This document shows, in pieces, positions 2,655 through 4,690 of a stretch of DNA of 11,826 nucleotides; within the stretch, counting starts at the first letter, position 1; each line of letters opens with the position of its first letter. The stretch is from a virus (Duplodnaviria > Heunggongvirae > Uroviricota > Caudoviricetes): the IMG/VR virus record IMGVR_UViG_2778261065_000019; one strand, written 5' to 3'. The notes beneath the pieces are model-generated. The model was not told the DNA's origin and did not search any database. It saw nothing but the letters and a program-made list of their open reading frames with translations. Made by a program: the position numbers and the translations under genes.

Positions 2655-3068
2655 TCAGATGGTTTTCAGTATGCGATCAATGTCGCCGTCATCGCCCGGG
2701 TTTCTGCCATCGTATGCCATGCCAGCTGATACGGCTTGTGGGCTGTGCATGTCCATAAAGTTTTCAAAGGCTGCGGTAAGCTCTGGTGCAACCTTCTGGC
2801 GTTCCTGTTCTATGGTCATGTTCAGGATGTTTTTAGCCGTATCAACATCAATACAAGGCACGTTTGCCATTGCACGTAACAGCGGCTGATAGTCGTCAGA
2901 TTCATGAAGCGACATAATCGCATCAGCGCGCGGCTTGTCCTGTTCTTCCAGTTTGTTAAGTTGATATATAGCTTCGTAGGTTGATAGACATCTGTCAGCC
3001 ATTGCCCGCGCTTCAGCTTTAAATTTACTCGCCAGCGGTAGCGCCATGATACTTTCATTCGTTGCCAT
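2655..3068 (-). CDS. Hypothetical head-module protein (137 aa), in the position of a gpFI-like gene
   Basis: ATG at 3068 with a G-rich SD (CAGGGGGGAA) just upstream, 11 nt after the stop of the D-like gene. Translation MATNESIMALPLASKFKAEARAMADRCLSTYEAIYQLNK... with an acidic C-terminal tail (GDDGDIDRILKTI). The upstream extension of the track ORF overlaps the D-like gene and is rejected. Confidence 0.5.
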   Translation of the reverse strand: MATNESIMALPLASKFKAEARAMADRCLSTYEAIYQLNKLEEQDKPRADAIMSLHESDDYQPLLRAMANVPCIDVDTAKNILNMTIEQERQKVAPELTAAFENFMDMHSPQAVSAGMAYDGRNPGDDGDIDRILKTI

Positions 3069-3081
3069 CGTTCCCCCCTGC

Positions 3082-3417
3082 TTATCGCGCCAGCGGCTGA
3101 ACAGATACACCAGAACCCGCAAAGGCGGCACATTTTTTCGCGTCGGTGTCGACGCTCTCAGGCCAGTTAACGGCGGCAATATTGAATATCCCCGTCTTGT
3201 AACACTGTGCTGATTTCTGCGTTGACGTGTCCACGGGATACGCCGTCAGATAAACAGCCTTGCCAGATTCCTGACCATCCCACGGCTTAAATTCGCCATT
3301 GTCCGCCAGCATCAGCGGGGTAAATTCCTGAATAACGCCAGCATCAGCGGCAAAATGTACCAGCGTCGTGGCAACCTGCTGACTGCCTGCAAATAACTCA
3401 ATGTATGGAGTGTCCAT
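3082..3417 (-). CDS. Head decoration protein, lambda gpD-like (111 aa)
   Basis: Segment PLMLADNGEFKPWDGQESGKAVYLTAYPVDTSTQKS...AAFAGSGVSV parallels lambda gpD ([27 protein letters not shown]...KRTAFAGTAISIV) and the length matches (gpD is 110 aa). SD GGGGGA 6 nt upstream. Confidence 0.7.
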   Translation of the reverse strand: MDTPYIELFAGSQQVATTLVHFAADAGVIQEFTPLMLADNGEFKPWDGQESGKAVYLTAYPVDTSTQKSAQCYKTGIFNIAAVNWPESVDTDAKKCAAFAGSGVSVQPLAR

Positions 3418-3428
3418 AGAATCCCCCG

Positions 3429-4484
3429 TTAACCAATTTTGACGGTAACAAATTTGCGAATATCTGCCGGAACCGGCTGCGGTGCGCTGTGCGTCTGCAC
3501 GTACTCAATCGCCGGATCGCCGTCCTCAATCCAGTTTTTCGGGTAAAACATGTTTTGCGTTGCGCCCGTTCTGACCGCTTCCTGATCCATAATCGCACCA
3601 TAGGCCACCAGCCCTTTATTGTTGGTGTTGCCCAGGACCAGCAAATCAGGCTCAAGGAAATATTTTTCGGTGCCGTCGCTGTCAGTGTATTTGCCGGAAT
3701 AGACGATAAGGGCAATATCGCCCAGATATCCTTTAAAGCTCACCACTTCGCCCAGGTTTTTACAGGCCAGCTCTGCGGAGGACTCTGAACCACGGGAAAG
3801 ATCGTACAGTTCGCGGAATTTTTTAAAGCTGCGTAACGTTCGCCATACCTCAGCGCCCATGATCATGACGTTGGCGGGGCAACATGCTTGATCCGCATAA
3901 AGCTCGATATCATAGATTGGATCGTGGGTTTCTTTGTCCTGCTCGGACCATTTACGGCCTTTGGCCTGCTCTATGATGTTTTTTTCCGGTATCTTCCAGT
4001 CGATTTCATAGCGTTCTATGCCTTCGCCCTCAATGATGTTTTTTCCGGTCGTTATCGCATTCACCGCCAGCCATTCCACGCGCGCTTTAATCGCGTTTAT
4101 CTGGCGGCGCATGTTGCCAGTAATCAGGCGCATACGGCGATAGGTTGGGTCATTAAGCTGTGCCGGATCTTCTCCAGCCATACGTATGATGGTTTTCGTT
4201 GGATCGATTTCGTGCTTCGGCTTCATGTATCCAGGTTTAATCGTGCTGGTTTCGTACCCTTTATCGCGCTGGACCTGACTACCCACCATAGGCGAACAAA
4301 ACGCCGACATCGTAACCTCTTCAATGTCCAGGGTGTCCAGCATGATGTTTTGGGTGTTGAATGTCGCCACGTTCGGGAAAAACAGCGTGGTAAACAGCGG
4401 ACTGAATTTAAATTCCGCAATATCCCCGCGATTCAGGTACATGAAAAGCTGGTTAGTGTTAAGTGCCGTTGCTTTGCCTGCCAT
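3429..4484 (-). CDS. Major capsid protein, lambda gpE-like (351 aa)
   Basis: Multiple collinear matches to lambda gpE by eye: KFSPLFTTLFFP vs KFDPLFLRLFFR, TPGYMKPKHE vs TPGYVKPKHE, DPTYRRMR vs DPAYRRRR, YPKNWIEDGDPA vs YPKNWVTTGDPA; similar length (gpE 341 aa). Start ATG shares one base with the stop of the upstream 68-aa ORF. Confidence 0.9.
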   Translation of the reverse strand: MAGKATALNTNQLFMYLNRGDIAEFKFSPLFTTLFFPNVATFNTQNIMLDTLDIEEVTMSAFCSPMVGSQVQRDKGYETSTIKPGYMKPKHEIDPTKTIIRMAGEDPAQLNDPTYRRMRLITGNMRRQINAIKARVEWLAVNAITTGKNIIEGEGIERYEIDWKIPEKNIIEQAKGRKWSEQDKETHDPIYDIELYADQACCPANVMIMGAEVWRTLRSFKKFRELYDLSRGSESSAELACKNLGEVVSFKGYLGDIALIVYSGKYTDSDGTEKYFLEPDLLVLGNTNNKGLVAYGAIMDQEAVRTGATQNMFYPKNWIEDGDPAIEYVQTHSAPQPVPADIRKFVTVKIG

Positions 4485-4690
4485 TATTCACCCCCATAAT
4501 TTTTATGCATCCCAAGCGCCGCAAGTAAATAAGAGCGTACAAGTGAACCTATCGACGGCTCCGGCGTCATCAGCGGATCCAGTCCAGCCGCCACGCCAGC
4601 CTCATAGTTTTTTTTGTGGCGCTGCTTGAGCACCTCCACGATTTCGGGGCTTATGTACACCGAAACACCGCCTTTTTTCTCTTCAGCCAT
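4484..4690 (-). CDS. Hypothetical small protein (68 aa), first gene of the capsid operon
   Basis: SD AAGAGGAA about 10 nt upstream of the ATG at 4690; stop overlaps the capsid gene start. MAEEKKGGVSVYISPEIVEVLKQRHKK... has a strand-then-helix pattern that could be RHH-like, but this is a guess. Confidence 0.5.
   Translation of the reverse strand: MAEEKKGGVSVYISPEIVEVLKQRHKKNYEAGVAAGLDPLMTPEPSIGSLVRSYLLAALGMHKNYGGE

What the first reader, a model, noticed from the sequence alone, without database searches (positions are those of the whole stretch)
2655..4690. Satellite carries its own lambda E-type capsid and D-type decoration genes, in reversed order, without portal, protease or large terminase
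The operon encodes a small ORF, a gpE-like major capsid protein, a gpD-like decoration protein and a 137-aa protein, then terminates. In lambda the order is D then E; here it is E then D. No portal, protease/scaffold or TerL homologue appears anywhere in ~11 kb. This suggests an island that supplies an alternative shell protein, perhaps to build smaller capsids that exclude the helper genome, while taking portal, maturation protease, terminase nuclease and tails from a lambdoid helper. The 68-aa and 137-aa ORFs are candidates for size-determining or packaging accessory factors.
Basis: partly seen in the sequence, partly recalled or inferred. Interest (0 to 1): 0.75.

Follow-up and report, generated by a model that had tools for sequence, protein, structure and literature searches.

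The report
Known satellite island's own capsid genes

Summary
On the minus strand there is a tight four-gene operon: a 68-aa protein, a lambda gpE-type capsid protein, a gpD-type decoration protein and a 137-aa protein, followed by a terminator. The gene order is E then D. The window has no portal, protease or TerL.

The window is a complete classical Gram-negative phage-inducible chromosomal island (PICI). Its late module is 93.7% nucleotide-identical to that of EcCICFT073: capsid 96% to c1499, decoration 97% to c1500, and the downstream Rpp 95% to RppA.

Published work on EcCICFT073 found that:
- deleting c1499 or c1500 changed neither lambda interference nor island transfer;
- packaged DNA was phage-sized.

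The small-capsid reading is therefore contradicted for lambda helpers.

New details from this analysis:
- The 137-aa protein is a truncated Nu3/gpC-type scaffold (hhalign 97%), so a scaffold homologue is present.
- The satellite's E and D proteins form their own old clades, and the E and D trees agree.
- dN/dS is about 0.1 for E and about 0.14 for D.
- The E-then-D order is kept across at least seven genera.
- The four-gene module occurs in about 11% of complete E. coli genomes.

The function remains experimentally unresolved. My best guess is redundant self-supply of shell proteins for full-size heads built on the helper's portal.

The parts
4747..4780 (-). Promoter-like element upstream of the operon: palindrome ATTGCATAAAATGCAAT overlapping a TTGCAT -35-like hexamer, then a 16-nt spacer and a perfect TATAAT
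   Evidence: Read from the sequence. It is nearly invariant in E. coli, Salmonella and Edwardsiella islands. The consensus scan did not call it because the -35 matches only 3 of 6 positions. Its function is inferred.
4718..4749 (-). 14-bp perfect hairpin followed by a T-run, between the promoter-like element and the ribosome-binding site of the 68-aa gene. It could be a terminator/attenuator or an operator.
   Evidence: Terminator-like site. Folding gives -21.2 kcal/mol, z = -6.9. A hairpin with changed arm sequence is present in the Salmonella locus L003, but none is obvious in L011 or L004.
4484..4690 (-). 68-aa protein of unknown function. Its stop codon overlaps the capsid ATG by 1 nt.
   Evidence: phrog_3255, E=8.5e-46, function unknown. 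The 1-nt overlap with the capsid start is kept in all loci that have the gene. dN/dS is about 0.23. The AlphaFold2 model has pLDDT 74, with an extended N-terminus and two helices. Foldseek against the PDB gave no match.
3429..4484 (-). Major capsid protein of the lambda gpE family (satellite lineage), 351 aa
   Evidence: Pfam Phage_cap_E 1.6e-50. 43% identical to lambda gpE. 96% identical to EcCICFT073 c1499. dN/dS is 0.105. It belongs to a separate satellite clade.
3082..3417 (-). Head decoration protein of the lambda gpD family (satellite lineage), 111 aa
   Evidence: Pfam HDPD 2.1e-18. 38% identical to gpD. 97.3% identical to EcCICFT073 c1500. dN/dS is 0.138. Its tree agrees with the capsid tree.
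2655..3068 (-). 137-aa truncated Nu3/gpC-type scaffolding protein: the C-terminal capsid-assembly module only, with no protease domain
   Evidence: It matches phrog_53 (head maturation protease) at profile positions 493-567 of 583, E=2.6e-8. Its only distant relatives among 1.84 billion representative proteins are Nu3-like scaffold or capsid-assembly proteins. hhalign against Nu3/gpC C-termini gives 97.1% probability, E=4.8e-11. NCBI's label 'head-tail connector' has no Pfam or NCBIfam support.
2627..2648 (-). Intrinsic terminator ending the operon (GCCGGAGAAATCCGGC followed by T6)
   Evidence: Sequence. Folding gives -18.4 kcal/mol.
2551..2625 (-). cos site (cosQ, cosN at 2583-2594, I2-like region) immediately upstream of rpp
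   Evidence: Exact lambda cosN. The alignment to lambda cos is conserved through cosQ, cosN and I2 and diverges in cosB.
2059..2493 (-). Rpp (redirecting phage packaging) protein, 144 aa
   Evidence: PDB 6hlk RppC, E=6.5e-31. 95.1% identical to EcCICFT073 RppA.
1813..1887 (+). Second cos site in inverted orientation (cosN at 1844-1855)
   Evidence: It forms a 75-nt inverted repeat, 84% complementary, with 2551-2625.
5106..5528 (-). SSB gene; end of the upstream replication module
   Evidence: Pfam SSB 4.9e-15.
6092..7846 (-). D5-type primase/helicase of the island
   Evidence: Pfam D5_N, DUF5906 and Pox_D5.
9864..10070 (-). AlpA-family regulator
   Evidence: Pfam Phage_AlpA 4.5e-8.
10585..11826 (-). 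Tyrosine integrase. It lies next to tRNA-Pro in related genomes.
   Evidence: Pfam Phage_integrase. Genomic context.

Best explanation
Shown. The region is the conserved late (head) operon of a classical Gram-negative phage-inducible chromosomal island of the EcCICFT073 type. It encodes a satellite-lineage set of lambda-type shell proteins: capsid E, decoration D and a mini-scaffold homologous to the C-terminal module of Nu3. A translationally coupled 68-aa protein of unknown role precedes them. A terminator, a lambda-type cos site and Rpp follow them.

Inferred mechanism. After induction by the helper, the island's E protein assembles into full-size (lambda-size) heads. Assembly is guided by the island's mini-scaffold and/or the helper's scaffold, and it is nucleated on the helper's portal. 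The helper's protease matures these heads. The helper's TerL fills them with island concatemers, after the Rpp-TerS complex has been redirected to the island's cos site. The filled shells expand and are then stabilised by the island's own D protein.

On this reading the genes are a self-supplied and normally redundant source of shell proteins. They would make the island less dependent on the helper's capsid supply or compatibility. They are not a device for changing capsid size.

I put about 0.95 on the identity of the element and about 0.4 on the mechanism.
For: Identity:
- The late module is 93.7% nucleotide-identical to EcCICFT073 over 3.4 kb, and the proteins are 92-97% identical.
- The island has the expected layout: int, alpA, primase, SSB, E, D, scaffold, cos, rpp.
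- It sits between yejO and tRNA-Pro.

The genes are functional, not decaying:
- dN/dS is 0.105 for E, 0.138 for D, and about 0.2 for the 68-aa and 137-aa genes.
- Full-length E-then-D pairs occur in islands of Escherichia, Salmonella, Edwardsiella, Serratia, Kluyvera, Cedecea and Superficieibacter.
- The module is present in 590 of 5426 complete E. coli genomes.

The proteins form their own shell set:
- Island E and D are each monophyletic. They are only 39-46% (E) and 27-42% (D) identical to helper proteins, and the two trees agree.
- From established lambda biology, gpD binds only expanded, DNA-filled shells at sites made by gpE trimers. A conserved cognate D therefore implies that island-E lattices do reach the packaged state.
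- The mini-scaffold is homologous to the Nu3 C-terminus.

Full-size heads and redundancy: in EcCICFT073 the packaged DNA is phage-sized, and the c1499 and c1500 deletions still transfer (PMC6092414).
Against: - No experiment has shown island E or D in particles.
- Deleting either gene had no phenotype with lambda or with the resident CFT073 prophages, so any benefit must be conditional.
- At 39-46% identity to helper E, compatibility with the helper's portal, protease and scaffold is unproven.
- The scaffold-like gene is absent or replaced in several related islands (L003, L006, L014, L015).
- In the closest genome hit the capsid gene is frameshifted.
Confidence: 0.45

Rival explanations
1. 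Interference. The island's E protein (with D and the mini-scaffold) co-assembles with, or competes against, the helper's gpE and Nu3. This poisons helper head assembly as a second anti-helper mechanism that is masked by Rpp.
For: Satellites commonly carry several redundant interference mechanisms, as described in PMC6739421. The single deletions were tested only with rppA intact, so a masked effect is not excluded. The mini-scaffold keeps only the capsid-binding C-terminal module of Nu3. That is the design of a competitor, as with SaPI1 CpmB (from my own knowledge of the SaPI literature).
Against: A poison subunit would not need its own co-evolving decoration protein, yet D is under purifying selection. 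Deleting c1499 or c1500 did not relieve lambda interference.
Confidence: 0.2
2. Size redirection. With some helper not yet tested, the island's E and scaffold build small heads (T=3 or T=4) that fit one or two copies of the 11.8-kb island and exclude the helper genome.
For: There are analogies. SaPIbov5 Ccm is a capsid homologue that redirects capsid size (PMC8569155). PmCI172, a Pasteurella island that carries a capsid homologue, makes small heads (PMC6092414). The presence of a scaffold fragment fits this idea.
Against: For the near-identical EcCICFT073, all packaged DNA was phage-sized with lambda. Four island copies total 47 kb, which fits a lambda head.
Confidence: 0.12
3. Back-up copy for helper-embedded life styles. 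Relatives of this island integrate inside the helper's own E, B, C or A genes. The island's E and D would then replace helper head proteins whose genes are interrupted. In chromosomally integrated islands like this one the genes would be an inherited carry-over.
For: Several related islands are inserted in the helper's capsid or portal gene: L007, L009 and L014. Mageeney et al. proposed this idea (PMC10111431).
Against: Excision restores the helper gene. The E-D pair is equally conserved in tRNA-integrated islands. The island clade is old and monophyletic rather than repeatedly captured.
Confidence: 0.13
4. Decaying remnant of a once more complete capsid-forming island or prophage, with no present function.
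For: Deletion gives no phenotype. One close relative has a frameshifted capsid gene.
Against: dN/dS is about 0.1. Full-length conservation and fixed gene order hold across seven genera, and the module is found in 590 E. coli genomes.
Confidence: 0.03

Closest known systems
EcCICFT073 late module (c1499 capsid, c1500 decoration, c1503 RppA) of E. coli CFT073
   Same: Same gene order and content: 68 aa, E, D, 137 aa, cos, Rpp, 93 aa. The module is 93.7% nucleotide-identical over 3.4 kb. Proteins are 92-97% identical. Both carry two lambda-type cosN sites.
   Different: The integration site differs: yejO/tRNA-Pro here (by comparison with the closest genomes) against the phoQ side in CFT073. The 68-aa protein is only 68% identical. 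PerC lies downstream of the operon here, at the far end of the island from int, but immediately upstream of the operon in CFT073.
Helper-embedded PICIs (11capE type; Mageeney et al. 2023)
   Same: Same island family and the same E-then-D pair. My loci L007, L009 and L014 are of this type.
   Different: Those islands sit inside the helper's late genes and carry a Nu1-type TerS or an AlpA-like third gene. This island is integrated in the chromosome and carries a scaffold fragment plus Rpp.
Capsid-forming PICIs (cf-PICI, EcCIEDL933)
   Same: The int, alpA and replication backbone is shared, and the island carries its own capsid gene.
   Different: cf-PICIs also encode a protease, portal, head-tail connectors, HNH, TerS and TerL, and they make their own small capsids. 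None of those genes is present here.
Lambda head genes Nu3/C, D and E
   Same: All three island proteins are homologous to them: E 43% and D 38% identical, and the 137-aa protein matches the C-terminal part of Nu3, residues 120-186 of 201.
   Different: The order of the three genes is reversed on the same strand. There is no protease domain and no N-terminal half of Nu3. The lineage is separate from that of the helpers.
SaPIbov5 Ccm and SaPI1 CpmB
   Same: These are satellite-encoded homologues of the helper's capsid protein (Ccm) or mimics of its scaffold C-terminus (CpmB).
   Different: They change capsid size. [quoted passage not shown] There is no sequence relationship.

Membership tests
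Classical Gram-negative PICI (EcCICFT073 type) | Integrase at one end, with a specific att site not used by prophages | tested here: met
   Integrase at 10585-11826. In the two closest genomes the island abuts tRNA-Pro and yejO. The att repeats themselves were not mapped.
Classical Gram-negative PICI (EcCICFT073 type) | AlpA regulator and a primase/replication module co-oriented with int | tested here: met
   AlpA at 9864-10070. D5-type primase at 6092-7846 and SSB.
Classical Gram-negative PICI (EcCICFT073 type) | Small size (10-20 kb), with no lysis or tail genes and no full head or packaging set | tested here: met
   The island is about 11.8 kb. Pfam and PHROG scans find only E, D and a scaffold fragment.
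Classical Gram-negative PICI (EcCICFT073 type) | Packaging hijack through helper-type cos plus Rpp (or its own TerS) | tested here: met
   Two exact lambda cosN sites with cosQ. Rpp is 95% identical to RppA.
Classical Gram-negative PICI (EcCICFT073 type) | Induction, replication and high-frequency transfer by a helper phage | not testable with these tools
   Shown experimentally only for EcCICFT073 (PMC6092414, PMC6739421).
Capsid-forming PICI (cf-PICI) | Own portal, protease, head-tail connectors and TerS/TerL/HNH in addition to the capsid gene | tested here: not met
   No such domains in any ORF.
Lambda gpE major capsid family (Pfam PF03864) | Full-length match above the curated cut-off | tested here: met
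   172.5 bits against a cut-off of 22.9. 43% identical to gpE.
Lambda gpD head decoration family (Pfam PF02924) | Full-length match above the curated cut-off | tested here: met
   67 bits against a cut-off of 29.1.
Lambda Nu3/gpC scaffold | C-terminal repeat motif (IMxLxEAxGRE...PGMT..A..L) plus the terminal FxxFM..HSP..V..G motif | tested here: met
   hhalign gives 97.1% probability, E=4.8e-11. Motifs are visible.
Lambda Nu3/gpC scaffold | N-terminal half of Nu3 and/or the S49 protease domain | tested here: not met
   Only residues 45-116 align. There is no Peptidase_S49 hit.
Phage head-tail connector (NCBI's name for the 137-aa protein) | Match to a connector/adaptor family | tested here: not met
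   No Pfam or NCBIfam hit. The relatives found are scaffold proteins.
Size-redirecting capsid homologue (SaPIbov5 Ccm-like) | Produces satellite-sized capsids | not testable with these tools
   The published test on EcCICFT073 with lambda was negative.

The most novel reading that the evidence does not exclude
The island's E, D and mini-scaffold, perhaps with the coupled 68-aa protein, build satellite-specific shells on a stolen helper portal. This would be a stage between classical PICIs, which steal whole heads, and capsid-forming PICIs, which steal only tails. The benefit would appear only with certain natural helpers or conditions: for example helpers whose capsid supply is blocked or interrupted, host defences triggered by the helper's capsid protein, or small heads formed with non-lambda helpers.
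Probability: 0.25. Interest if true: 0.6.

Novelty: already known. Interest (0 to 1): 0.22.

Why it matters
The module is very common. It is found in about 11% of complete E. coli genomes, including O157:H7, Nissle 1917 and CFT073. It is under clear purifying selection, yet its only published knock-outs have no phenotype. That is a small, real open question in satellite biology: why keep a private capsid, decoration protein and scaffold fragment when the helper's heads suffice? The finding as written adds nothing to what is published. The useful additions here are the scaffold assignment of the 137-aa protein, the evidence that E and D are an old co-evolving satellite lineage, and the argument that a conserved D implies DNA-filled shells made of island E.

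Tried and rejected
- tblastn of the 137-aa protein against 50,697 phage records: no match. BLASTP against lambda gpC was only marginal, E=0.04. The relationship needed profiles.
- NCBI's name 'head-tail connector' for the 137-aa protein: rejected, because no family scan supports it.
- AlphaFold2 model of the 137-aa protein: low confidence (pLDDT 61, all helices), so I did not use it for a fold search.
- 68-aa protein: I suspected a ribbon-helix-helix fold from the strand-helix-helix pattern. The model is moderate (pLDDT 74) and Foldseek against the PDB gave nothing (best E=2.3). It is left as unknown.
- The genome-contig scan with the capsid alignment returned only 3 loci because the peptide patterns were too strict. 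I filled in the context with the look-up of encoding contigs instead.
- Megablast of the module against phage records: no match. The best phage capsid is only 46% identical, so recent capture from a known phage is rejected.
- Literature searches for a later functional explanation of PICI capsid genes found none in the held library.
- Comparing conservation along E between the island and helper clades showed only that the N-terminal arm is the most variable part. This was not decisive.
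Full report
**Observation**

The window carries, on the minus strand, a tightly packed operon:
- a 68-aa ORF at 4484-4690;
- a 351-aa ORF at 3429-4484, whose ATG overlaps the preceding stop codon by one base;
- a 111-aa ORF at 3082-3417;
- a 137-aa ORF at 2655-3068.

The 351-aa protein is a full-length member of the lambda gpE capsid family (Pfam PF03864, E=1.6e-50; 43% identical to gpE, E=4e-94). 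The 111-aa protein is a gpD-type decoration protein (PF02924, E=2.1e-18; 38% identical to gpD). Lambda's own order is C/Nu3, D, E. Here the order is E, D and then a third gene.

A GC-rich hairpin followed by six T residues (2627-2648) comes directly after the 137-aa stop codon. Scans of all sizeable ORFs against Pfam and PHROGs found no portal, no S49 protease domain and no large terminase.

**What the window is**

The whole window is one island read on the minus strand:
- integrase (10585-11826);
- AlpA (9864-10070);
- DUF4222 protein;
- D5-type primase (6092-7846);
- a 92-aa protein;
- SSB;
- the head operon;
- a cos site;
- a 144-aa protein that matches the crystal structure of RppC (6hlk, E=6.5e-31);
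- a second cos site in inverted orientation;
- a 93-aa ORF;
- PerC.

Both cos sites contain an exact lambda cosN, GGGCGGCGACCT (0.04 matches expected by chance). They align with lambda through cosQ, cosN and the I2 region and then diverge in cosB. In the two closest complete genomes the island lies between yejO and tRNA-Pro/yejM.

**Identity with a studied element**

The late module of EcCICFT073 in E. coli CFT073 (L016) is 93.7% identical at the DNA level over 3.4 kb. Protein identities are as follows:

| Protein here | EcCICFT073 counterpart | Identity |
|---|---|---|
| capsid | c1499 | 96% |
| decoration | c1500 | 97.3% |
| 137-aa protein | its neighbour | 92% |
| Rpp | RppA (c1503) | 95.1% |

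The literature on that island applies directly:
- Fillol-Salom et al. 2018 (PMC6092414) noted the capsid and decoration genes. They deleted each one and saw no change in lambda interference or in island transfer. All packaged DNA was phage-sized.
- Fillol-Salom et al. 2019 (PMC6739421) showed that RppA binds the helper's TerS. This blocks helper packaging and redirects the terminase to the island's cos site.
- Mageeney et al. 2023 (PMC10111431) state that a capsid gene is the most common late gene in Gram-negative PICIs, present in 21 of 29 reference islands, and is not needed for transfer.

The finding is therefore already known. Its favoured interpretation, small capsids, has been tested on a near-identical element with lambda and was not borne out.

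**The 137-aa protein**

Neither Pfam nor NCBIfam supports that name. The evidence points to a scaffold instead:
- It matches the last 90 positions or so of PHROG 53, the head maturation protease, which is the Nu3 region.
- A profile search of 1.84 billion representative proteins found only a narrow family plus a few longer proteins.
- Those longer proteins are themselves Nu3-like scaffold or capsid-assembly proteins and share two motifs with it.
- A profile-profile comparison with the C-termini of lambda Nu3 and of helper gpC proteins gave 97.1% probability, E=4.8e-11. It aligned residues 45-116 with Nu3 residues 120-186.

The island therefore carries a scaffold homologue. It is a truncated one, without the protease domain and without the N-terminal half of Nu3. 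With this gene included, the three homologous genes stand in exactly the reverse of lambda's order, on the same strand.

**Evolution**

Capsid homologues at 52-85% identity sit in the same kind of island in Escherichia, Salmonella, Edwardsiella, Serratia, Kluyvera, Cedecea and Superficieibacter. E is always followed directly by D. Where such an island is embedded in a lambdoid prophage (L007, L009, L014) or lies beside one (L011, L013), the prophage shows the lambda order: protease, D, E.

Island E proteins form one clade that is 51-92% identical internally but only 39-46% identical to helper or lambda E. Island D proteins do the same, and the two trees have the same shape.

Against an 85%-identical relative, dN/dS values are as follows:

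| Gene | dN/dS |
|---|---|
| E | 0.105 |
| D | 0.138 |
| 68-aa gene | about 0.23 |
| scaffold fragment | about 0.2 |

The 2-kb module is present at 80% coverage or more in 590 of 5426 complete E. coli genomes. No phage record carries it, and the best phage capsid is 46% identical. These genes are an old, co-evolving, selected set belonging to the satellite lineage. They are neither recent captures nor decaying remnants.

The third gene varies between islands. It can be a 134-141-aa scaffold fragment, an AlpA-like protein, or nothing. The packaging gene is either Rpp or a Nu1-type TerS.

**Mechanism**

Several points are established:
- The helper supplies the terminase, and the island redirects it through Rpp and its own cosB.
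- Packaged DNA is of helper length.
- The E and D genes are dispensable in the laboratory.

My inference starts from established lambda biology. gpD binds only to expanded, DNA-filled shells, at sites formed by gpE trimers. A private D that co-evolves with a private E under purifying selection makes sense only if lattices of island E are actually filled with DNA. Since the island has no portal, such shells must form on the helper's portal.

I therefore favour the following reading, at about 0.4-0.45. The operon is a self-supplied, usually redundant source of shell proteins for full-size heads, and its benefit is conditional on the helper or the host.

The rivals are:
- a second, masked interference mechanism (0.2);
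- size redirection with untested helpers (0.12);
- a back-up for helper-embedded life styles (0.13);
- a decaying remnant (0.03).

The 68-aa protein stays unknown. Its 1-nt overlap with the capsid start is conserved across genera, which suggests coupled synthesis. Its predicted structure matched nothing in the PDB.

**Verdict**

It is wrong, or at least unsupported, about small capsids and about the absence of a scaffold homologue. Interest is low. What remains interesting is the unanswered question of what these conserved genes are for.

Noticed in passing
window 8834-8921 (-) and 8943-9019 (-): Rfam finds a C4 antisense RNA (75 bits) and an isrK Hfq-binding sRNA (80 bits) side by side. This is the P1/P4-type immunity RNA pair. 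They lie in the region that the mechanical ORF list covers with a 423-aa ORF, whose C-terminal part has an Ash-family domain (Pfam 8.3e-16). The annotated relatives have an Icd-like gene here. A classical PICI carrying P4/P1-style immunity RNAs may be worth a look.
   Followed up: partly
window 4718-4780 (-): Upstream of the head operon there is a nearly invariant palindrome, ATTGCAwAAAATGCAAT, that overlaps a promoter-like element with a perfect TATAAT. A 14-bp perfect hairpin and a T-run follow it, just before the ribosome-binding site. The promoter and palindrome are conserved in E. coli, Salmonella and Edwardsiella islands, while the hairpin sequence varies. This could be a late promoter with an attenuator/antitermination target, or an operator. 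I did not resolve it.
   Followed up: partly
window 5000-5090 (-): Just downstream of SSB there is a near copy of the operon's terminator (GCCGGAGCAATCCGGC followed by T6). After it comes a degenerate cosQ/cosN-like stretch (ACGGGTCC...ACGGGGCGGGAGGCGCG). This looks like a decayed third cos site.
   Followed up: partly
window 1813-1887 and 2551-2625: The two cos sites form a 75-nt inverted repeat (84% complementary) flanking rpp, so both point into rpp. EcCICFT073 is reported to have two cos sites, of which only cos1 is needed. The inverted arrangement could allow inversion of the rpp segment by recombination.
   Followed up: partly
L001 11314-12367 (NZ_CP169399.1): In the genome most similar to the whole window, the capsid gene is annotated as frameshifted. 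In both closest genomes (L001, L018) the rpp region is reduced to a 69-aa ORF. Individual copies therefore do decay despite the family-wide selection.
   Followed up: no
L004, L005, L011 (around locus positions 9795-11056): The 68-aa genes of L004 and L011 are 99% identical at the protein level, while the adjacent capsids are only 62% identical. This points to a recombination breakpoint at the junction between the 68-aa gene and the capsid gene, and to modular shuffling within the operon.
   Followed up: no
L007, L009, L014: Related islands are inserted inside the helper prophage's own capsid gene E (L007 in E. coli, L009 in Cedecea) or portal gene (L014 in Edwardsiella). These are helper-embedded PICIs as described by Mageeney et al. 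2023. The Cedecea and Edwardsiella examples extend the pattern beyond E. coli.
   Followed up: partly
window 660-1031 (-): A PerC-family transcriptional activator (Pfam 7.7e-23) sits at the far end of the island as likely accessory cargo. In CFT073 the PerC gene lies immediately upstream of the head operon instead.
   Followed up: no
phage records ON470596.1, ON470627.1 and similar: Several 'phage' records of only about 20-27 kb (the vB_EcoM-569R10 group) carry a gpE-family capsid 45% identical to this one. They may be satellites or partial genomes deposited as phages.
   Followed up: no
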